A DNA stretch of 64,000 nucleotides from Ascoidea asiatica JCM 7603. Taxonomy: Eukaryota > Fungi > Ascomycota. The stretch lies in assembly GCA_001600695.1 (NCBI GenBank), contig BCKQ01000005.1:429993-493992 (forward strand), in the 5' to 3' direction. Shown here piece by piece: positions 1 through 64,000 of the stretch. Positions within the stretch are counted from its first letter, which is position 1. Each line of letters opens with the position of its first letter. The position numbers and the translations under genes were made by a program. A model generated the notes under the pieces. That model saw only the letters and a list, made by a program, of their open reading frames with translations. It did not search any database and was not told where the DNA came from.

Positions 1-468
1 TCTACTTTTTTACAACAAGCCTCAGATACAACTAATGGAATCTACTCATTCGTTAAAAGTGAAGATATAGATGGTATCATCCAATATTTATCAACATCAT
101 TTTTTATTGATCCATCTCTACGTAAGTATGTAATATTACCAACAGATGGTGATATTGATTTTAGAGCATCATGTTTTTTGACAGGCGATGTTGTTGATAT
201 TGGTTATGTATGTTCCGTATGTTTGTGTATTTTAAGTAGGATTCCAGGTGATAATACCTGTCCGACATGTGGATGTGAATTTGATAAATTGACTTTACAA
301 AACTTAAGAAAGAAACCTGTTATTGTTCTTCCAAAAAAAAAAAAAAAAAAAGGATCCTTAAATACAAGTACGAATGCAATTTCAAGTTTAAATGTAAACA
401 ATTCAAACATAGTCTCAAGTGGAAATATAAATACTAATGTAATCACAAATAGTAAAATTGGTCAATAA
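1..468 (+). CDS. TFB4: TFIIH subunit Tfb4 (p34), 3' part; 5' end lies outside the window
   Basis: Frame +1 is open from base 1: STFLQQASDTTNGIY...DIDFRASCFLTGDVVDIGYVCSVCLCILS...CPTC, the Tfb4 C-terminal region and C4 zinc finger; stop at 466-468. Confidence 0.93.
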   Translation, partial: STFLQQASDTTNGIYSFVKSEDIDGIIQYLSTSFFIDPSLRKYVILPTDGDIDFRASCFLTGDVVDIGYVCSVCLCILSRIPGDNTCPTCGCEFDKLTLQNLRKKPVIVLPKKKKKKGSLNTSTNAISSLNVNNSNIVSSGNINTNVITNSKIGQ

Positions 469-17632: not shown

Positions 17633-18070
17633 CTTATTTACCTCTTTTCTGTTATATTTTCTTAAAATTATTAATTCATTTAATCCATTTATGGGATTAT
17701 AATAATATATAAAACATAAATTGATAAAAACCAGTAGTTTTCAGAAATTAAAAAAGTAAAGAATATCAAAATACATAACAAAATGCTAAATGGGTATAAA
17801 CATCAGGGACGTGCCGAGAGAACCAATTTCATGGGTGTTTGAAAAATAAGGAGTCCCGAGTAATTGGCTTCAGTTCACAGGGAAAAGAACGAAACCCACA
17901 ATATCGGTCTTTGTGTAAGAAACAAAAAAATGGGTCAGTTTCTTCTCATTATTTCGTTTCAAGTGGCATAAAAAGAAGTAAAATCTTATGCAAAATATGA
18001 AAATATTAATTCTTTTCTTTCAAAAGAAAGCAGGAAAGGAGTACTTGTGTCAATATTACAAAGACTAAAT

Positions 18071-18433
18071 ATGGCGAAGCGAAGTGAAGAAGCAGAAACT
18101 TTTCGTGCTGCTGTCTATGATGCCGTGAAAAAAATTCCTTATGGTAAGGTTTCAACTTATGGTCACATAGCAAAAATGATATTTAGACCTCAAAACTCAA
18201 GACAAGTTGGAATTGCTTTGAAAAATTTACCTACAGAGCAAGATGATATTATACCTTGGTGGAGAGTCATTAATTCACAAGGTTTAATCTCTAAGAGAAT
18301 CTCGTTGAAGGGTGAAATTGGGGAACTTTCTCAAGCTAAACGACTCGTTGAAGAAGAAGTTGAAGTGGATTTGGAATTACTAAGCATTGATTTAAGAACT
18401 TATGGCTGGTTTCCTGGAACTGATTTTGATTGA
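18071..18433 (+). CDS. ATL1: Alkyltransferase-like protein (Atl1 type, O6-alkylguanine binding, no catalytic Cys)
   Basis: IPYGKVSTYGHIA...RQVG...IPWWRVINSQG: MGMT DNA-binding fold with W in place of the PCHRV cysteine. First ATG at 18071. Confidence 0.88.
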   Translation: MAKRSEEAETFRAAVYDAVKKIPYGKVSTYGHIAKMIFRPQNSRQVGIALKNLPTEQDDIIPWWRVINSQGLISKRISLKGEIGELSQAKRLVEEEVEVDLELLSIDLRTYGWFPGTDFD

Positions 18434-20444: not shown

Positions 20445-21012
20445 ATGCCACCAAAAGGATGGAGAAAAAATGCAGATGGTACATATCCAACACCAAATCG
20501 TGAACATGAAAAGATTTCAATTGATGATATATTACTTCCCAAATCAACTTTATTGAGATTAGCAAAATCAGTTTTACCAGATGGTAGTTTAATATCAAAA
20601 GATTCTGCAACAGTATTACAAAGATCTTCTACAGTTTTTGCATCATACTTAATGTTTTACGCACGACAATTTGCTGAACAACATGATCGTAAAACTGTAA
20701 CTTCTCAAGATATAACTAAAGCATTAGATAAAATTGGTTTTAATTCTTTTATACCATATGTTGAAAAAGAATTAGAAGTATTTAATAATATTCAAGCTCA
20801 AAAAAAACAAATAAAACTTAATCAGAATAATGCAAATGAAGAATCCTCAAAGAATGAAAAGACAAATGAAAAAAATTTAATTGAGAAAAATGTAGTTGAA
20901 AAAAATATAGTTGAAAAAAATGATGAAAACTTTTCACATAAAAAATTGAAAACTAATACCGGGAAAGAAATTCTAAGTAAAGATATAAGGCATGATTCAA
21001 ACATAGAACAAG

Positions 21013-21055
<43 letters not shown>

Positions 21056-21374
21056 TAGTACTAAAGAAGAACTTGATGAAGAATCAGATGAAGATGAAGA
21101 AAATGATATTCGTAATGATTTAAAAGTAATTGATGACATTGAGAGAGAATTAACAGAGAGTGAAGATGAAAATGAAAATGAAAATGAGAATGAAAATGGA
21201 GATACTTCTTCTGTAGGTAGATCGAATATCATGGAAGATGAAATTGAAGAAAACTCAGAAGATTCTAAAATCAAAAGAACTACTAAATTATCTCTGACTC
21301 AAAGAAATAAGGATCCCGATGAAGAATTTGATGAATCTGATAAATCAGATAATGAAAATAATTCTGAAAGTTGA
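20445..21374 (+). CDS. DPB4: Histone-fold protein Dpb4 (DNA polymerase epsilon and ISW2/CHRAC subunit)
   Basis: Starts MPPKGWRK as Dpb4 does; histone fold LLPKSTLLRLAK...ISKDS..VLQRSSTVF; acidic tail. ATG at 20445. Confidence 0.92.
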
Positions 21375-25707: not shown

Positions 25708-27728
25708 ATGTCGTATGTAAAAACTTTCAATATAACTTACAAAATGCTCTTTTTTTTTTTTTTTTTTAAAATATTTCTTCATAAACTAACTTAATCCAAA
25801 TTAAATTAAGTGGAAAATTTGTTCGTGCATCAAAATTTCGTCATGTATTTGGTCAACAATTAAAAGAAAAAATTTATTTAAATTTAAAAATTTCAAAAAA
25901 TGCTTGGGATTGTAATTTAATTAAGGTTAATGATTTATATTTAGCATTTCCAATTGAATCTGGTGGATTTTCTGGTTCTTTTACAATTTTACCTTTAAAT
26001 GAAACTGGTAAATTACCTGATAAATATCCTTTATTTATTGGTCATACTTCTTCTGTACTTGATTTATCCTTTAATCCTTTTGATAATAAAATAATTGCAA
26101 GTTCTGGTGATGATGGTAAAATTTCTTTATTTAAAATTCCTGATGATTATTCTTTTAAATCTCCAATTTTAGATTCTAATGATGAACCAATTAATTTAAA
26201 ACCTTTTAAACAATTATCTGGTCATTCAAGAAAAGTTGGTCATATTAAATTTCATCCAATTATAAAAGATATTTTAATTTCTTCTTCAATGGATTATACA
26301 ATTAAAATTTTTAATATTAAAACTGGTAAAATTTTGAATACTTTAAAACATAAAGATTCAATTTCTTCTTTTTCTTTTAGTTATAATGGTCAATTTTTAA
26401 TTTCTGCTTCAAGAGATAAAAAATTAAGAATTTGGGATATTTATACTGGTGAATTAATTCAAGAATCAATTGGTCATTCTTCTCCAAAATCAACAAGAAC
26501 TATTTGGTTAGGTAATAATAATAGAATTATAACAACTGGTTTTTCAAAATTAAGTGAAAGACAAATTGGTCTTTGGGATTCAAATAATTTGTCAAAAGGT
26601 CCAATTGGTGGGTTTATAACTGTTGATGTATCTTCTGGAATTTTAATGCCATTTTTTGATTATTCAACTTCAATTTTATTTGTTGCTGGTAAAGGTGATG
26701 GTAATATAAGATATTATGAATATGATCCAAATTCTGATGATTTATTTCCAATAAGTGAATATTCTTCAATTGATCCACAAAGAGGTTTTGATTTATTACC
26801 AAAATATGCTTTAAATTTACAAAATAATGAAATTGTTAGAGCTTATAAATCTGTTAATGATAATTCTATTGAAGCCATTTCTTTTACTGTTCCAAGAAGA
26901 TCGGATGGTTTTCAATCTGATATTTATTTAAATTGTCCTTCAAATTTACCTGCCTTATCTGCTGAAGATTTTGAAAATGGTAAAAAAGCTAATGGTCCTA
27001 TATTAATAGAAATGGAAACTTTATTTAATAATTCAAATCCAATTTATACTCCTTCAAATGATTTACCAAATGAATTATCGAAAAAAGAATCATCAACTAA
27101 AAAAGAATCTCGAAAAATTGAATCATCAAAAAAAGAAATATTAAAAAAAGAATCAAAAGAAGAATCAAAAGAAAATATAAAACAAGAAGAAAAATTAATT
27201 TCAACTTCAAAATCAAGTGGTAAGATTGATGATTTATTAAATGGTAAAGCTGTTAGTTCATTATTAGATAAAGCTTCTGATCTTGATAATGATAATAATA
27301 TCAAAGTTGAAGAAAGTTTATGGGATGAGGAAGATGATGATGTTTTAATTAAACAAACTCCAAAACAACAACAAACTCCAAAAGAATTTGTTAAAGAATC
27401 TCCAAAAGTTAAATCTTCTCAAAGATCATCTATTTCAAGCAATTCTAGATCTTCAACTCCAAATAATAATTTAAATCCAACCCCAGAAACTATTTCAAGT
27501 AATTTATCAAGTACTGTTTTAAGTTCTATACCTGGTACACCAATTAATGAAGATAATAGTGGTAATAAAATTATTGCTTTAAGAGAAGTTGCAAGTACTT
27601 TAACAATATTATTAGCTAAATTAGAAAATGAAATTACAAATTTAAAAGAAGTTAATAAACAAAAAGATAAAAGATTAGAAAATCTTGAATTAAAAATTGA
27701 ACAACTTTTATCTCAACAACAATCATAA
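25708..27728 (+). CDS. CRN1: Coronin; exons 25708-25712 and 25811-27728
   Basis: Removing intron 25713-25810 (GTATGT, AACTAAC, AAG) gives MSGKFVRASKFRHVFG, the coronin N-terminus, in frame with the tracked ORF (WD40 repeats, GKGDGNIRYYE, VPRRS, C-terminal coiled coil). Confidence 0.94.
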
Positions 27729-30090: not shown

Positions 30091-30213
30091 TTTAGGAACT
30101 TATTCAAACTTATTGTAGCTAAGGTTTTTTCTGTTTTTATTATTACTTCTCTTGCTTATTTACTACTATTATTAATTATCTGAAATATTTTTGCATTTAT
30201 ATAATAAAGAACT

Positions 30214-30594
30214 ATGCCTCCTGTTCAACAAGTTCAATATGGTCAACCACAATCCAATTTTGAAAAATTCAAAATGGGTTTCTTAATGGGTGGTACTGTT
30301 GGTGTTGTTTTAGGTACTTTATTTGGTGGAGTTGCTGTTTTTCAAAATGGTCCTGGTCCAAATGGTTATCTAAGAACTGTTGGTCAATATATTGCAGCTT
30401 CTTCAACAACATTTGCTTTATTTATGTCTGTTGGTTCTGTTATAAGAAGTGATGATTCAAACTTAATCAATTATAATAATCAATTTCAAATAAACAGATT
30501 CAAATTAATGAATCCATATATTAATAATAATTATAATAATAATTATAATAATAAAAGAAATGGAAAATTTCTTTCATCTCCATCTGATTACTAA
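30214..30594 (+). CDS. MGR2: TIM23 complex subunit Mgr2 (ROMO1 family)
   Basis: [15 protein letters not shown]...GPGPNG.LRT.GQYI...[13 protein letters not shown]. Confidence 0.94.
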
Positions 30595-47035: not shown

Positions 47036-47851
47036 TTAGACTAGTGGAGTAGGAGAAGAAGATTTTGAAATATATTTTGACCTCAATAAAGCTATTCTAT
47101 AAAAAACCGTATTAATAAAACAGTTGGAAAGTGATAAAAAAGAAATGAATAAAGAAATAAATGCTATAGTCTTTATATAAAGAGTAACATTAGAATTTGA
47201 GTTAACAGAATTATTCAAGTTATTAAGATCATTTGAATTATCTTTCAAATTTTTTTGATTTTTTTTGAAACTATCCTCATCTAAAGTATAAGCATTATAG
47301 GTTAAATTCTGTATTGGTATTAAATAATAAACTGAGGTTAAATATAATACAAAGCTAAAAAACTGGAGAATTGTACTTAAAATATGTAAATTGTAAGAAA
47401 ATTTATTTGGTATTGTTACTGAAGCAAAAGGTAGAATATATGCACATATTAAAAACTTGAAATTTAGCAGTGTTAGCTTTATTTAGAATATAGTATAACT
47501 TATGAGGAAGCAAAAATAAATAATTTAAAATTATAATTTAGTAGTTCTTACCATTACTAAAGTATAATATGGAGCCAATATTGAAATTGAAGGTCTGTTT
47601 TGAATTTCATCAAAAGGAATATTCATAAAAGAAATTAAATATTGAACTAAAAGTAAAAAAATATATGATTCCAAAAATCTTCGAACCAATTTTGAATTAT
47701 AAATAAAATCAGAATCAGAATCGAAATCATTTGATGAATTTAATTCAGATTTTATACCTGAATTTAGCTGTGAATCACAATTCAAAGTTGAACTTCCATT
47801 GATAGTACCAGAATTAAGAAGCAAATCAGAAAGATTGTTTTTTGAATCCAT
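47036..47851 (-). CDS. Orphan multi-pass membrane protein, 239 aa; exons 47851-47552 and 47455-47036
   Basis: Intron 47551-47456 (GTAAGA, GCTAAC, AAG) joins two tracked ORFs into one stop-free 720-nt frame with about four hydrophobic segments. Confidence 0.65.
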
Positions 47852-49240: not shown

Positions 49241-49383
49241 TGATACCAGCGAGGTTCGAACTCGCGCCTCCGAAGAGACCCGCAAATTTAATATACTCTC
49301 TATACTCTTGCTTCTGTTTATCAGCTTAAATATTTATTGGAATTATCCTGAAGCGGGCGCCTTAACCACTCGGCCACAGTATC
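49241..49383 (-). tRNA. tL(CAG): tRNA-Leu, anticodon CAG, with a 62-nt intron (49346-49285)
   Basis: GATACTG TG GCCGAGTGGTTAAGGC G CCCGC TT CAG G [intron] T GCGGG TCTCTTCGGAGGC GCGAG TTCGAAC CTCGC TGGTATC A: full cloverleaf, A and B boxes, long variable arm, A73 discriminator, U33, G37, downstream T7 terminator. Confidence 0.93.
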
Positions 49384-50464: not shown

Positions 50465-53069
50465 TCAATGAAAACAGCTTTCAAAACTTATTTGTTCTCC
50501 ATCGAGGTTAAAATCCGAAGAAGGTTGTTTATCTCCTCCTCCTGTATTAAATATCATACTTTGATAATTATTTGGATAGATATTTTGAAGATTTTGCAAA
50601 TTTTGACAATTTGCTAAACTCTCTAAATTGGATAAGTTTGTTATATTATTTGGTAAATTTAGCATATTTACAAATCCTGTAAAATTATTTGCATTGTTTA
50701 TGCTATTCATATTATTTAAATTATTCAAATTGTTTGAATCGATTGAAGTATTTGAAGAGTTTATATTGTTCCTTTTGCTATCATTCATTCTTTCAAAATT
50801 TGCATTTGTATTTTCACTTCCATTGCGAATGTTATTGCTATTATTGTTATTATTAATTAGCATATTTTCACTGAACAAAAGATGTTGTTGATATTGACTA
50901 TTGACTGGAGTAAATATATTAGAATTTGGTTCTTCAAATGTTGCAGTCATTAAATTATTATTATTATTATTGTTATTACTACTGATATTATTAATGTTAT
51001 TGACAATATTGAGATTTTGATTATTCAAATTATTATAATTATTGGAATCACTCGAATCAGGAAAATCAATTGAGGTCGGAATTAAGTATTGTGAATATTG
51101 AGAATTTTGATTATGCTGATTAGTTTGAGATAAATTTTGATTAAAATTAAAATCAGGAACTATTTTAAATGGAGTTTCTAAATTATCTGCAAAATCAGTA
51201 GAAATTGTTGAAACTGAACCTAAATTTGAATTAAATGATGAAGAAACTGTTTCTTCATTAAAGTTTGCTCTAATTGGTGTGAAAAAAAATTGAGAATTAT
51301 TGTTTGCTAAATTTAAATTTAGATTTTCGGTTTTAGTATTTAGATCAACTAAACTTGAATTTGAAACTTTGGAAATATTATTATCATTAAAAATATTTTC
51401 TGAATTGAAATATTTTAAATTAATCGGTGTAATAGCAGGTGTTACGGATGGTGTTATAGAAGAAGATATAGTAGAAAGTAAATCTATACTAGATAAAGAT
51501 TTAGAATGTCCTCCAAGAGATGAATTTGATTTCAGTTTGTTTTTTAATTTTAAATGTGAGTATGAATTTGTTTTATTTTTAAATGTTTTTGTGTTTGAAT
51601 TTGCTGAATATGATATTGATGATGATCTCAGTTTAGTATTAATAGATAAATTCTTAGGGTTTGAAGTTTTTAGTCTTTTATTGTTATTTGATGTTAAATT
51701 ATTTTTGTAATTGTTTGTTTCATTATCATTACTTAATATTGCTTTTCCATCTTCTGTAAAAGAGATTGACATTGATTTAGAAAGAGAAACTAAATTTGAA
51801 TTAGAATTAGAATTTTTTTTTGGTTTGTTTTCTTTCTGAAAATTTTCATATAAATCTTTATTTAGGTCATTATCAAGAATATTAGTATCAATATCTACTA
51901 AAACATTTGAAGAATTTGTATGTGAATCAGTTTTCTTTTTTATATTTTTGATCTTATTATTCTTATTAATCGTCCTTTTAGAACTTTTCAATAAAAGTTT
52001 ATTATTATCAGGGCTAGAATATTTACTTTGATTTGCCGTTTTATTTTCAAATTTACTCTTACTTTTATTTTTATTAGTTATTTTTGAGTTTAAATTTTGT
52101 TTTTCTTTACTGGAATTTTTATCCGGTGAAAGAGACCTTTCTTTTTTGGCAATTTCTTTTTTAATGCTCTCTTTCATATCTTTAGAAGGTAATTGATTAA
52201 TTTTATTATTGGAAGAATTGAATGAATAATTTTTAAATTTGAAAAAAGAGTTATTATTATTGTTGATATTAATGTTCATCTCTTTATTATCAGTTTCACA
52301 CTTTAAATTTTTCAGAGATTTTAATTTCGCTGGAGATTTCAATCTTAATGGAGTTGGAGAAGGTAATTCAGGTAATGAATGATCAACAAAAATATATTCA
52401 GTTGAATGATTTTTAAAGATATTTTGAGAGCTTTTACTTGAACTTGAGTTAGAACCTGAATTTGAATTTGAGCTTATATTTGAGCTTGTATTTGAACTAG
52501 ATTTAGAATCAATATTGGAATTTGAATTTGTGTTTGTATTTGAATTGATATTTGATAAAGATTTTGAGTTTTTTAAGTACTTTTTCGAAGATTTAATTGA
52601 ATTATTATACAATTCAATTTTTTGATTAGTTAATTGAAAACAAAAATCAAAATTATTAGTTTCATTGATATTGTTATTATTATTATTATTATCATTATTA
52701 TTTTTATCATTAGGTTTATATAATAGTTTATTTGAATTTTTTTTATTAATTTTATTGATAATTTTATCATTTTGAGAATTTATAGAATTATTTAATAATT
52801 TTTCTCTTTGTCTGTCTTTATTATTTTTTAGTCTCCAAACAGATTTTGAAGAAGAATTCATATTTAAACTTGATTGTCTTTCAAGAGATTCTTTTGATTT
52901 CACTTTTACTTTTGGTAAATTATATGTTGAAACATTTATATCAGATTGAAAAGTTTTTCTAAAAAAGTAAGGAATTATTAAAGTTAGTTAAAATTTTTTT
53001 TAGATTAATTTGTCGATGTTAAGGAATAATTCTTTGATAAAGAACATACAGTTTGTTTGAATTTACCAT
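50465..53069 (-). CDS. Uncharacterised Asn/Ser/Lys-rich low-complexity protein; exons 53069-53050 and 52958-50465
   Basis: Intron 53049-52959 (GTATGT, AACTAAC, TAG) links MVNSNKL in frame to the 812-codon ORF; no domain recognised. Confidence 0.72.
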
Positions 53070-56000
53070 TTTGACTATTTTTAAGTAGTGTTTTATAATT
53101 ATTTTGATAAATAATAGTAAAAGAAAGTATTATTCTTGAAATTTTTTATTGAATATTTAGTATTAAATATTAAATATTGAATATAGATTATTAATTATTA
53201 AGTGAAAGAAAATTTTGAACTCAAAAATGAAGAAAAGTTAAGATGATTTTATAAAGCAATTTGGAAGATACATATATATATATATATATACAGTATGTGA
53301 AGTGTTTATTTATTTAGATACAGTATTTGAATGTTTTGATATTTACATAAAACTGGTTGAAATAAATGAGAATTAAAATCACGTTAAAAAAGTAGGATTT
53401 GCTCATTTTCTTTTTGACCCACTTGGATTTAGCTGAAGTAATTCAGAATCAAACAGTTAAGAATATTCCGAATTCACTCCAGCATTCTTAAGCATTATTG
53501 GTGATATAATTATAATTATAAATGGAATACACATGTATGATTGTGAATTGAATTAGATTTTAAAAGGAGTGAGAATTCAACAATGTTGAAAAAAACAGTG
53601 GGCATGTTGAAATTGATAAAAAGTGTATAGAAATTTATTAAAAGTTAATAGAAAGTTTATGAAAAGTGTAAAAAAAGTTTATAAAAACTCGAAAATATTT
53701 CTAAATATTCCTAAATATTCATAAATATTCCTAAATATTCATATATATTCATGAATATTTTTTTTATTTTTATCCAATGAGGTGCCAGCAGCTGCAGAAA
53801 GCCTTCTGTTGAAGGCACATTCGATTGAATATATGCGTTTCTTCGTTGTATCTTGGAATGGAAATTCAGCTTCAAATCCAGCTATAGCTACCATCACTAC
53901 AAAGTTTTAATCACTTTCAATAACAGTAGTACTAGTACTGTAAAAATCTTCTTGAGACAATTTTTGTAACATTAATAACAATTATTTGCTTAGTATTTGA
54001 AACAGCAACATGAAATGGGTATCTGAAAAAGAGTAGACATTATTAGTATATTACATCTCTCGGGCTAACCCGAAGGAAGAGATGACTTGCCTTAAACGAT
54101 GCTTTGTTTGTGGAACAGACAAAAGAAAATTAAATCAGTTTTTTTACTGGCATGGTTGAAATATTACGAAAACAAAGACACGGTCATAAAGGTTTTGTAC
54201 CGGATCAAGTTCTAATTTTTGATTCTATTTTCTTGCTTCCAATTTATTTTCTCATTCTCAAACTCATTGATTCCTGGATTACGCGTCGTTATTAAAATAG
54301 ACACTTGGGTCTTAATAGGCCTAGAGGTTTTAGTAAAGATGAGGAAATTCAATAAAAGCCATGTGAAGTGCGTTGAAATTCATTAAAATTATAGATTTTT
54401 TCATTATCCATTTGTAAATCTGGGATGATCAATTAAATTGCAAATATGTCTATGCAAAAAGATAATAGCTGTTAGGTGGTATTAGTAGTTTTTAGCCAGG
54501 ATCTACTAGCACCATTTGCATATAAATATCTTTTTATGCGCATGTACAATTTCAAAATGCTGGATGCTGGCATTTTGAGTGTTGTGTAACTGGGATAACC
54601 ATATTTTTGTTTTTATGGAAGGATTAGTTTAAAATTTTATGAAAAAAAACGCGGTAGAATTAATGCCTTCTTACATCTTTATACAGCAAACAGATGGAAT
54701 ATGCAGCGAATAATTCTCTGGGAGAAGTGAAATTTAGAAGCTTGTAAAACACTTGATTGAAATTAGTTTTTATAGAACCCAGAGATAAAAAGAATTAGAA
54801 TGGTATGAATTTATTTTATAACAATGTTTTTTATTTTCATAAATAGTAAGCAAATAAGAATGGCAATTTCATTATTATTTTTCAGTACCAAAATGATTGA
54901 ATATTACAATTGAATTAAAAAACATATACTACTATGAATAGAGTATATAAGATATACAGTTTATATCAATATTTATCACAATGTTATGAATATACTCAAA
55001 AGTTTTTGTGTTTTTGTGAATTTTGGGGTTGATTAAAGGTATTAATTAAAGGTATTAATTAATTAAACAAATTAAGCCAGCATTTATTCAGCTCAGATTT
55101 TCAAATACTGTGAAACTTTTATTTTCAAGTAAGGTGCACTGTACACAATGTAAACTCTTCTGAACGGAGGAGAAAGCCCTAATAATAATAATCATTAAAA
55201 CACAAACGCGAAAATGAAATATTTTTGTTAATTTTGAAAATTAGCTTTATAGATCAATTCCGACCATTTTGTTAATCCGACCACATTTATACCACCTTGG
55301 GAATTACAAAATAAATCGGGTCATCAAAATCAACAATGGGTACCGTGAGAAAAACTCTCTAGACCTCCGTTTGTAGAAAGCTTTGAATCTCACTTAAACT
55401 TTCATTTCAGGAAAGAAGACAATCTTATCAGAAAAAGTTTTCTATGTAAATTTGTCAGTATAAATTTTAGCCTGCCGGAACGGAAACACGGATATATTTG
55501 TTTCCGATCCCGTGACTCATTAGAAACTTGAAGTTTGCCAACATTTGTTACAAGGAGGTTATGCTGTTGTTAACAGTTGTTCGCTTGGCTTTTATGGCAT
55601 TTCTAATACAAATCGGTATTGTGTAAGTCTTACAATTACGGACTCACCGCTTGATCCGTTATTGCCATAGCATCAACTCCATTTATACTATTGAATTTAT
55701 TTATGCTTACGTAATGTTCCATGGAAAAAAACCAAGAAAATCAAATCAAAGATGAAGAATGAGGAGGAACTCGCCAGGAATGAAAATTGAAAAATAGAAG
55801 TGAAAAAACATTTGAAAATTAGATACCAATCAACATGTATGTCTTTTACAATAAAACAACAACAATGAAAATATCCATATTTTTTAGTATATTTTCTGCT
55901 AAAAAAAAGAATTATTAGATCACTAAATTACTAAATAGCTAATTAAAGATTTCAATACTTCAAAAATTACACTACTGTAGTGAAAAATTTATTAATATTG

Positions 56001-57238
56001 AATTCAAAATCGTTCGAATAAACAAAAAAAACAAACATATTTCCAGCTTCCTTTCCATATTGAAATAGAACCGCACCGCAGTAACGTTAATCATTTTGCC
56101 GGTAACCTTCTCACCTCTTTTTCACCTCTCACCTTAACGTTACCGACCTTGCTTCCAGTACGCATTTTTTACATTGGTTTTCAATCCACCTCCATAACAT
56201 ACAAGCTCTTTACTTAAAGGCTTTAAGAGCTTTTGATAAACCTTCAATTTTTTAATCTTTCAATCTTTCAATCTCTTAATATTATTATCCCATTCATTTT
56301 ATTCCTATTTTATAATATAATAAAAGTAATCATTACTCAAAAATATCAAAGTCAAAATCATCAAGTAATAAATAACATTATTTGTTGTTAAAAGCCATTA
56401 TTCCTGTCTTCGTATTATTCTCTATTATTTTCTTTTATCAACATTAACCAAGGCTAATTATTTAATTCCAAGCTTTTTTCAATTTGAACAACAGATAGCA
56501 TATTTCAATTTTTACTTCAAAAAATTTATCACAACTACAATTCAAAATTTATATATCTATCTATCTATCTATTTATACTATTTATTATATCATTTTATAT
56601 CTATAATTTCATATTCATCATTTTTTTAATATATTTCTTATAATAATAAAACTTATAAAATCTCCTTTTAGAAATAAAAACTTTATGAGAATTCTCAATT
56701 CGTTCCTTTAGATAAAAATTTGGTTTCAATTATAAATTATAATTTTGAAAATATACAATATATTATAAAAACAACAGCTCTAGATTTTTTTTTGTTTATC
56801 AAATGAATTAAATATTTCTTTCTACAAAAAAGGTATAATTTCAAAATAATTTCAACAACTTTATTTTTTCAATATCCATGCTCAAACATATATTTAAATC
56901 AGTTATATATATAAATTCAAGAAAATATTAACTATTCAAATTTGTTTCTATCACACGCAATACAAATTGTTCAAATTTGAAAATTCCTTTCTTAAAATTT
57001 TTAATTTTCTATTAATTTTTTCAGCGCTTATTTTTTTTATATTGATACATAATTCTTAAAAAAATAAAATTAAAGTCATATTATATCAAATTTCATTTAA
57101 CTTTAGTCATATTTTATTTATTTTACCTATTTTTTTATAAAAAGTTGATAATTTATTCTTTACTAAATTTTTTTTTTCTTTATTCAATAGTTTGTTTTGT
57201 TCTCTAAAAAAATTGATTTACTGTTTTCAATATAAATA

Positions 57239-62242: not shown

Positions 62243-62845
62243 AGTTATTTTCAATTGTTAATTATGGAAGTTAAGGGTTTTTTTATTTGCTTAAATTTCA
62301 TTTTGTATTATTACTCCTAGCAATGTTTTATTCTATGTTATTATATTTTCTCATATTTTTGTTATTCATTTCCATTTTTCTCCTTTTAAAAAATCCTAGA
62401 CCTTTTATTTTTCTATAACTATAATTATATTGTTAATTCTCATTTACATGATAAATAATGCGCAGATTTGTAACAAATACATAGTTATGCTATGTTCGAT
62501 ATTTATTCATGAAAAGCTGTATCAAACCTGCGTGATTTAAGTAGGGCGATTGAGATTCCTTGAACGGACAGAAGTGTCCGCTGAAAAATTTTAAAAGTTG
62601 CCTATTATAAAGGGAAATGATCTGTAATCTTGCACTATCTATATTAACTATGTTTTTAGTAACGTTACTCTTATTAAAATTATCATTATCATTATCAATA
62701 TTATCTTCGTAATATTAAGAGTTTATTTACAAAACATACTTTCAATCAGCACATCAGTACCGTTAAAATTCTACAGATTTTCTCATTCCATATATGTATA
62801 TATATATCATTCTTTCATTTATTAAAATTTTAGATCTCAGTAGTA

Positions 62846-63931
62846 ATGGTATCACAAGAAGCTGAAAAACCTTTACAAAATCAAGGTGGTAAAAAACGTA
62901 ATTATTCAAGCAAACAAAAAAGTATGAAGCAGAATGGAAAAAAAGTCTCTTCAATCTCACGGTACCCTAAGGAATCTACAGAAGAATTAGATGACTCAGA
63001 ATTGTGTGTGATTTGTGCTGAAAAGATTATTTTTTCAGCTTTAACACCTTGTAACCATAGAACATGTCATGTATGTGCTTTAAGACAAAGAGCATTATAT
63101 AAAAAAGATATATGTGTCGTTTGCAGAAGCGAGATCAAGGATGTTATTTTTACTGATGAATTGACGGCAAATTATGACAATTACAATTCTTCCACTCCTA
63201 TTGCTATTAATCAAGAATTTGGAATTCGATTTTATTCTGAGGAATCTTATAATAAAACTTTGAATTTGCTCAAACATATATGTCCGTTTAAAGATTGTGA
63301 ACTAGAATTTCCTGATATATTCAAGTTGAATAATCATCTTAAAGATTCCCATGAAAAGCAATATTGTATAATATGCGCTAAGTTTAAAAAGGCTTTCACA
63401 TCTGAATTATTTTATTATAATTCAGGTAAACTTAAAAAACACCAAAGAGAGGGAGATCAACAGGGGTTTACAGGGCATCCAACTTGTAAATTCTGCTCTG
63501 GATTCAAATTTTACTCAGAAGATGAGTTGAAAGTTCATTTAAGAGATAAACATGAAAAGTGCCATATCTGCGAACAAATTGGTGTAACAGAAAATCAATA
63601 TTTCAAAGACTATGAAAATCTATATTCACATTTTTGTAAGGATCATTATGTATGCACTGTTCCAAGCTGTGTTCAAGACAAATTCATTGCATTTGGTAAT
63701 GATATTGATTTGAAAGCACATATGATCAAAGAACACAGTGATATATATGGAGGAAATAAAAGTATTAACTTATTCAGTTCTAGTCTTGATCAAGCTCCTT
63801 CAAGAAAATTTCAATCTCAACTCTCAACTTTTTCAATCCCCCCTTTAAATTCTAATGGGAATTCTAATAGAAGCAGAAATAATGGTAATAACAATAATAA
63901 CACTAATAATAATAATAATAATAATAATAAC

Positions 63932-64000
<69 letters not shown>
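62846..64000 (+). CDS. HEL2: RING E3 ubiquitin ligase Hel2/ZNF598, 5' part; runs off the window and is absent from the ORF track
   Basis: ATG at 62846 opens MVSQEAEK...ELCVICAEKIIFSALTPCNHRTCHVCALRQRALY...CVVCR, then C2H2-like fingers and GFTGHPTCKFC. Confidence 0.92.
63880..64000 (+). repeat. (AAT)n poly-Asn tract inside HEL2
   Basis: Near-pure AAT/AAC run continuing to the window edge. Confidence 0.9.

What the first reader, a model, noticed from the sequence alone, without database searches (positions are those of the whole stretch)
49241..49383. Intron-bearing tRNA-Leu(CAG), the tRNA at the centre of yeast CUG reassignment
Seen: intact CAG-anticodon tRNA with Leu identity features (A73, A35, G37, Leu-type variable arm; U33 rather than the G33 of Candida tRNA-Ser(CAG)), a long 62-nt intron, and two adjacent wobble pairs at the base of the acceptor stem (U6-G67, G7-U66). 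Known: this tRNA was lost or replaced repeatedly in budding yeasts; in the Ascoidea/Saccharomycopsis clade it can coexist with tRNA-Ser(CAG), giving ambiguous decoding (A. asiatica) or a retained but non-contributing Leu tRNA (Saccharomycopsis). Inference: if the host belongs to that clade, this locus bears on whether CUG is read as Leu, Ser or both, and the intron or weak stem could limit its activity.
Basis: partly seen in the sequence, partly recalled or inferred. Interest (0 to 1): 0.75.

Follow-up and report, generated by a model that had tools for sequence, protein, structure and literature searches.

The report
Ascoidea asiatica's ambiguous-code leucine tRNA
This intron-containing leucine tRNA gene has the same mature sequence as the one published for the yeast Ascoidea asiatica, where it likely competes with a serine tRNA so that the codon CUG is read as leucine or serine at random; remarkable biology, but already described.

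Summary
There is a minus-strand tRNA-Leu(CAG) at 49241-49383 with a 62-nt intron at 37/38, U33, A35, G37, A73 and wobble pairs U6-G67 and G7-U66.

The spliced 81 nt match, letter for letter by eye, the A. asiatica Leu(CAG) row printed by Mühlhausen 2018. The window's ISW2 is sister to A. rubescens (SH-aLRT 100, 77-78% identical). CTG is 16 of 1411 leucine-box codons and avoids conserved-Leu columns. This is very likely the published gene behind about 54:45 Leu:Ser decoding of CUG.

The idea that the intron or weak stem throttles it is not supported: one gene yields about half of the CUG residues in published proteomics. I could not see the partner tRNA-Ser(CAG): no genome is held, and read-laying was uninformative.

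Possibly new: positions 42-65 are identical to the organism's own intronless tRNA-Leu(AAG), positions 1-28 match its Ser(CAG) at 27 of 28, and no TRM1 was found in the window. The gene may be a converted or re-derived mosaic, which bears on a published disagreement about its origin. Verdict: already known; low interest.

The parts
49241..49383 (-). tRNA-Leu(CAG) gene, 143 nt, 81 nt after splicing
   Evidence: Rfam, ARAGORN -i, identity with the printed A. asiatica row
49347..49383 (-). Exon 1, tRNA positions 1-37: acceptor 5' strand, D arm (internal A box expected here), anticodon, G37
   Evidence: the A box is established Pol III knowledge, recalled
49348..49350 (-). Anticodon CAG (C34 at 49350)
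49285..49346 (-). 62-nt intron at canonical position 37/38, 77% A+U; its third-last base can pair with U32
49241..49284 (-). Exon 2, positions 38-73: variable arm, T arm (B box expected here), acceptor 3' strand, discriminator A73 at 49241
49249..49280 (-). 32-nt block (positions 42-65) identical to the organism's own intronless tRNA-Leu(AAG) genes
   Evidence: exact piece at about 2.4-3.3 times the depth of the unique flanks, with a loose end that reads as an AAG anticodon arm
49356..49383 (-). 28-nt block identical at 27 positions to the published A. asiatica tRNA-Ser(CAG)
   Evidence: by eye against Fig. 2B text of PMC6041473
49231..49237 (-). T7 run, likely Pol III terminator
   Evidence: function inferred

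Best explanation
The locus is an intact, intron-containing tRNA-Leu(CAG) gene whose mature sequence equals the published Ascoidea asiatica gene, and it is likely the leucine adaptor that competes with tRNA-Ser(CAG) to make CUG translate at random as Leu or Ser. Shown here: gene anatomy, Leu identity elements, Ascoidea host, rare CTG that avoids conserved Leu sites. Inferred from general tRNA biology: Pol III transcription from internal A/B boxes to the T7 run, intron removal at 37/38 by the tRNA splicing endonuclease and ligase, CCA addition, m1G37, charging by LeuRS through A73/A35/G37 and the long variable arm, and Watson-Crick reading of CUG. Published, not tested here: a Ser(GCU)-derived tRNA-Ser(CAG) reads the same codon, giving 53.9% Leu and 45.0% Ser, and the organism copes by keeping CUG rare and out of conserved sites.
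For: Spliced window tRNA (62-nt row) equals row AoasLeuCAG at 81 of 81 positions by eye. ISW2 best hit is A. rubescens at 77%; the quick ML tree puts it sister to A. rubescens (SH-aLRT 100) inside a clade with Saccharomycopsis (96). A. rubescens itself lacks this tRNA (PMC6041473) and is too distant to be the host. CTG is 16 of 1411 Leu-type codons in 16 ORFs, 1.1%, against 1.3% published for A. asiatica. In TRA1, 0 of 3 well-aligned CTG sit at columns with at least 50% Leu, against 312 of 470 other Leu codons; one sits at a column with Ser in 65 of 118 homologues. In ISW2 the single CTG column has Leu in 3 and Ser in 17 of 65 ungapped rows, while 72 of 102 other Leu codons sit at columns over 80% Leu. 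PMC11342251 describes the A. asiatica tRNA as the only structurally normal Leu(CAG) in the order.
Against: The partner tRNA-Ser(CAG) was not seen: no genome is held and nothing was laid on the shared 5' block (the tool warns that a hole proves nothing). No RNA run was listed, so splicing and charging are untested here. TRA1's best hit is Pachysolen (55%), S. crataegensis scores lower (45%) and no hit named Ascoidea is among the 120 listed, so the host placement rests on ISW2 and the tRNA. Only 5 of 16 CTG were checked against homologues, and one of these (TRA1 660) aligned in only 55 of 120. A sister Ascoidea species with an identical mature tRNA is not excluded. The papers infer leucylation from proteomics and state that biochemistry was not done.
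Confidence: 0.9

Rival explanations
1. A retained but non-translating tRNA-Leu(CAG) of the Saccharomycopsis kind: the intron and two adjacent wobble pairs cripple it, and CUG is read only as Ser.
For: The intron is about twice the upper quartile of yeast tRNA introns (15-31 nt; PMC5951914 supplement). None of 53 relatives has wobbles at both 6-67 and 7-66. CTG columns lean to Ser rather than Leu.
Against: It lacks the defects listed for Saccharomycopsis: normal D loop, pyrimidine at 20a, intact variable arm. Its mature sequence equals that of the species where Leu makes up 54% of CUG spectra.
Confidence: 0.04
2. An ordinary tRNA-Leu(CAG) in a host that reads CUG only as Leu (a standard-code yeast, or an Ascoidea species without tRNA-Ser(CAG)).
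For: The structure is a normal Leu tRNA; no Ser(CAG) gene was seen; low CTG use could partly reflect 27% GC.
Against: Host is in Ascoidea; all 33 Ascoideales strains examined carry tRNA-Ser(CAG) (PMC11342251). CTG avoids conserved-Leu columns, whereas the equally GC-rich CTC does not (18 of 24 in TRA1).
Confidence: 0.03
3. The gene is the A. asiatica one, but the Leu at CUG comes mainly from wobble by tRNA-Leu(UAG) or from mischarged tRNA-Ser(CAG).
For: No direct charging assay or knockout in A. asiatica appears in the parts I read. The Ser(CAG) shares acceptor pairs 1-5 and the D arm with this Leu tRNA.
Against: A. rubescens has a near-identical Ser(CAG) and a Leu(UAG) but no Leu(CAG), and reads CUG as Ser; the Ser(CAG) has G73 and A37.
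Confidence: 0.03

Closest known systems
Ascoidea asiatica tRNA-Leu(CAG) (Mühlhausen et al. 2018, PMC6041473; Ó Cinnéide et al. 2024, PMC11342251)
   Same: Mature sequence identical at 81 of 81 positions by eye; G37, A73, long variable arm, G13:A22 mismatch; host in Ascoidea with about 1% CTG.
   Different: None found in the mature tRNA. The intron and flanks are not printed in the text I could read, so they could not be compared.
Saccharomycopsis tRNA-Leu(CAG), orthogroup tL(CAG)-Z (Krassowski et al. 2018, PMC5951914)
   Same: CAG anticodon, A35/G37/A73, intron-bearing; anticodon arm 27-43 differs from the S. fibuligera row at only 3 positions.
   Different: Different acceptor stem and T stem; those copies are structurally aberrant and unused in translation; they lie near TRM1, which was not found in this window.
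tRNA-Leu(AAG) isoacceptor (the organism's own and other eukaryotes')
   Same: Positions 42-65 identical to the organism's own AAG genes; at most 2 differences over 66-75. The 25-nt variable/T-arm motif marks Leu(AAG) in 53 of 54 metagenome matches.
   Different: AAG genes are intronless, have one more D-loop base, and differ at 5 positions of the anticodon arm (29, 31, 34, 39, 41).
tRNA-Ser(CAG) of Ascoideales (Ser2) and Serinales (Candida, Ser1)
   Same: Same anticodon; positions 1-28 match the A. asiatica Ser(CAG) at 27.
   Different: Printed Ascoideales Ser(CAG) rows have G73, A37 and a different variable arm; the printed Clavispora row has G33 and G73. This gene has A73, G37, U33.

Membership tests
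Eukaryotic cytosolic tRNA-Leu (class II) | Cloverleaf with long variable arm | tested here: met
Eukaryotic cytosolic tRNA-Leu (class II) | Identity elements A35, G37, A73 | tested here: met
   elements as listed in PMC11342251
Eukaryotic cytosolic tRNA-Leu (class II) | Spliced and leucylated in vivo | not testable with these tools
   no RNA run listed
Published A. asiatica tRNA-Leu(CAG) | Mature sequence | tested here: met
   81 of 81 by eye
Published A. asiatica tRNA-Leu(CAG) | Host in Ascoidea and not A. rubescens | tested here: met
   (one gene, quick tree)
Published A. asiatica tRNA-Leu(CAG) | CUG rare and absent from conserved Leu sites | tested here: met
   small numbers (5 of 16 CTG checked)
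Published A. asiatica tRNA-Leu(CAG) | tRNA-Ser(CAG) in the same genome | tested here: inconclusive
Published A. asiatica tRNA-Leu(CAG) | About equal Leu and Ser at CUG sites | not testable with these tools
   published only (PMC6041473)
Orthogroup tL(CAG)-Z (ancestral Leu1+Ser2 gene) | Located beside or close to TRM1 | tested here: not met
   no TRM Pfam hit in 16 long ORFs or in 69 of 174 shorter frames; window reaches 49 kb on one side, 15 kb on the other
Orthogroup tL(CAG)-Z (ancestral Leu1+Ser2 gene) | Clusters with Leu1-clade tL(CAG) in a tree | not testable with these tools
   no yeast tRNA set available; the two papers disagree
Degenerate Saccharomycopsis tRNA-Leu(CAG) | Enlarged D loop, purine at 20a, or lost variable arm | tested here: not met
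tRNA-Ser(CAG) (Ser1 or Ser2) | G73 discriminator; A37 (Ser2) or G33 (Candida type) | tested here: not met
   A73, G37, U33

The most novel reading that the evidence does not exclude
[quoted passage not shown] Its variable arm, T arm and most of the acceptor 3' strand were rewritten from, or descend from, the organism's own multi-copy tRNA-Leu(AAG); its first 28 nt are nearly those of its rival tRNA-Ser(CAG); only the anticodon arm and intron look like the old CAG gene. Gene conversion between tRNA genes would then have repaired or rebuilt a decaying adaptor, making the random code of A. asiatica a secondary state rather than a frozen intermediate.
Probability: 0.25. Interest if true: 0.55.

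Novelty: already known. Interest (0 to 1): 0.22.

Why it matters
A. asiatica is the published case of a sense codon decoded at random by two competing tRNAs, and this locus is the leucine half of that system, so the scan has recovered a landmark rather than found one. Two small additions. (1) Practical: positions 1-28 would cross-react with Ser(CAG) and 42-65 with Leu(AAG), so only the anticodon arm and splice junction can identify this tRNA in northern blots or tRNA-seq. (2) Evolutionary: the literature disagrees on whether the gene is the surviving ancestor (ambiguous-intermediate model) or a separate capture (tRNA-loss model). Block-wise identity with the organism's own AAG and Ser genes gives a direct way to test that.

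Tried and rejected
Default find_trnas: 0 genes, because it does not look for introns. Whole genome: none held, so no genome-wide tRNA census.

Sequencing runs: no RNA holder listed. Laying X1-X3 at 95% and 85% likeness showed nothing on the 5' exon except the locus itself; this is no evidence for or against Ser(CAG).

Supplement searches with a 12-letter motif found nothing in PMC11342251 or PMC5951914; their alignments and synteny figures are pictures I could not see, and they bear on the origin question.

TRA1 as a second species marker: no hit named Ascoidea listed. The careful ISW2 tree did not finish; the quick tree of 25 rows (24 of 120 hits, picked by me for named taxa and top scores) was used.

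The 798-aa neighbour has no Pfam family, homologue or Atlas lead, and the 148-aa frame on the other side gave only scores under 0.9, so the neighbours could not anchor synteny.

Intron-anticodon pairing: a 4-nt complement occurs in 10% of shuffled introns and 4 of 5 pairs in the A-I register in 7%; not beyond chance, so I dropped the idea that the intron betrays a UAG ancestor.

A DPB4 gene lies 28 kb away; I recall DPB4 neighbours TRM1 in S. cerevisiae, but a paper search gave no confirmation (listing only), so it is not used. Earlier-findings look-up was empty.

Full report
OBSERVATION. The window is 27% GC, has no N, and carries budding-yeast genes: SPP41-like, an ankyrin/DHHC palmitoyltransferase, an elongase, ISW2, DPB4, SEC62, a PROPPIN, TRA1, a P4-ATPase and others (gene names are my reading of the Pfam hits). 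Rfam finds one RNA, a tRNA at 49383-49241 on the minus strand (41.4 bits, E 2.4e-05). ARAGORN with introns calls tRNA-Leu(cag) with a 62-nt intron after G37. The spliced 81 nt form a cloverleaf with acceptor pairs G-C, A-U, U-A, A-U, C-G, U-G, G-U, U33, A35, G37, A73, a variable arm closed by a UUCG loop, and a T7 run just downstream.

WHAT IT IS. The text layer of Fig. 2B of Mühlhausen et al. 2018 (PMC6041473, supplement file 4) prints a row AoasLeuCAG of 81 nt. By eye it equals the spliced window tRNA at all 81 positions. Three further lines fit. (i) ISW2's best of 7992 scored hits is Ascoidea rubescens at 77%; a quick ML tree of 25 rows makes it sister to A. rubescens (SH-aLRT 100) within a clade with Saccharomycopsis crataegensis (96). 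A. rubescens is too distant to be the host and lacks this tRNA. (ii) CTG is 16 of 1411 Leu-type codons in 16 ORFs, 1.1%; the paper gives 1.3% for A. asiatica. (iii) CTG does not behave like a Leu codon: 0 of 3 well-aligned TRA1 sites fall on columns with at least 50% Leu, against 312 of 470 for other Leu codons (by hand, about 0.04 by chance), and one falls on a mostly-Ser column (65 of 118). The ISW2 site is variable, with Ser commonest. A fourth TRA1 site aligned in only 55 of 120 homologues (21 Leu), and 11 of 16 CTG were not tested. Against: TRA1's best hit is Pachysolen and no hit named Ascoidea is listed. The partner Ser(CAG) gene was not observed, since no genome is held and nothing laid on the shared 5' block. 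A sister species with an identical tRNA is not excluded.

HOW IT WORKS. Shown: anatomy and identity elements. Inferred from general knowledge: Pol III transcription, splicing at 37/38, CCA addition, m1G37, charging by LeuRS, Watson-Crick reading of CUG. Published: in A. asiatica 501 of 929 spectra at CUG sites were Leu and 418 Ser, with both residues at 44 of 110 sites; the authors attribute this to competition between one Leu(CAG) and two Ser(CAG) genes and state that direct biochemistry was not done. Ó Cinnéide 2024 (PMC11342251) calls it the only structurally normal Leu(CAG) in the order and notes strains with one or two Ser(CAG) genes. The intron is longer than the 15-31 nt interquartile range but far below the 134-318 nt structured introns of Kluyveromyces and relatives (PMC5951914 supplement), and it folds weakly (-5.1 kcal/mol). 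All 53 complete relatives sharing the variable/T arm have at least one acceptor G-U pair, three of them U6-G67, though none has both 6-67 and 7-66. A partial cost of the stem or intron remains unmeasured.

AN ASIDE ON ORIGIN. In contigs of runs X1-X3 (two samples at most, possibly the window's source), the 32 nt from position 42 to 65 stand as an exact piece at depth 130, 128 and 137, against 46, 53 and 41 for the unique flanks; depth is not a copy number. Its loose end reads as an intronless tRNA-Leu(AAG) anticodon arm, and a piece running through the acceptor 3' strand has 2 other letters. So the 3' half is that of the organism's own AAG genes. A 25-nt motif from it was found in 50 listed metagenome loci (52 stretches reported). 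Of 54 matches, some counted twice through overlapping loci and falling into five acceptor-stem types, 53 are Leu(AAG), one is cut off, none is CAG; all have U60 where this gene and its own AAG paralogue have C60. The first 28 nt match the printed A. asiatica Ser(CAG) at 27 positions. No TRM1, the neighbour said to mark the ancestral locus, was found among 16 long ORFs and 69 of 174 shorter frames. This fits conversion or re-derivation and echoes Mühlhausen's view of a separate origin.

Against the mosaic reading: the AAG arm is ancient and slowly changing, so identity need not mean recent transfer. Two further tRNA-like contigs per run also fit the T-arm region with 5 differences in 35-36 letters. 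The anticodon arm is closer to the S. fibuligera Leu(CAG) (3 differences) than to the own AAG (5), and AAG has no intron. Krassowski and Ó Cinnéide treat the gene as an orthologue of the ancestral tL(CAG)-Z. I could not see their alignment, tree or synteny figures, nor obtain Wickerhamomyces or Cyberlindnera tRNAs. I found no statement of AAG or Ser block identity in the passages read or in searches, but figures and unseen supplements may show it. I put the mosaic reading at 0.25.

WHAT I READ. PMC6041473: sections 9-12, term passages, supplement file 4 part 2 and two supplement searches. PMC11342251: parts 1-4 of 6 and one supplement search. PMC5951914: term passages, supplement file 1 parts 4-5 and two searches. 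bioRxiv 10.1101/2023.07.05.547863, PMC8629427 and PMC13608737: term passages only. Others: search listings only.

VERDICT. Real feature, correctly described, and very likely the published A. asiatica tRNA-Leu(CAG) (0.9). Already known; interest 0.22, the residue being the testable question of its mosaic origin and the probe-design caveat.

Noticed in passing
window 47039-47851 (-): Two frames in the same phase (106 and 148 aa) separated by stops, with a donor-like site near 47551, a branch-like site at 47477 and an acceptor-like AG near 47456: likely one spliced gene for a small membrane protein, the tRNA's nearest neighbour. No Pfam or Atlas assignment.
   Followed up: partly
window 50465-52861 (-): 798-aa Asn/Ser-rich ORF with no Pfam family, no homologue and no Atlas lead; it holds 3 of the 16 CTG codons.
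   Followed up: partly
window 20445-21374 (+): DPB4 (polymerase epsilon subunit D), 28 kb from the tRNA. From memory DPB4 neighbours TRM1 in S. cerevisiae, so it could be a relic of the ancestral linkage; unconfirmed.
   Followed up: partly
window 52862-57238: 4.4-kb stretch with no stop-to-stop frame over 85 aa, no Pfam hit and no Rfam hit at gathering threshold.
   Followed up: no
window, 16 long ORFs: CGG (2) and CGC (4) are rarer than CTG (16), so rarity alone does not single out CUG; its placement away from conserved Leu columns does.
   Followed up: partly
window 26289-27728 (+): Coronin-like ORF (name from the WD40_4 hit and recall) begins inside its WD40 repeats, so an upstream exon is probably missing from the ORF call.
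   Followed up: no
window 17972-18430 (+), 30208-30591 (+), 1-465 (+), 62834-64000 (+): Small or edge genes missed by the 150-aa ATG scan: alkyl-DNA binding (MGMT/ATL-like), Romo1/Mgr2-like, Tfb4 and a ZNF598/Hel2-like RING protein.
   Followed up: no
L005: A cut-off tRNA with the same variable/T arm whose anticodon loop reads GAG rather than AAG by eye; ARAGORN made no call.
   Followed up: no
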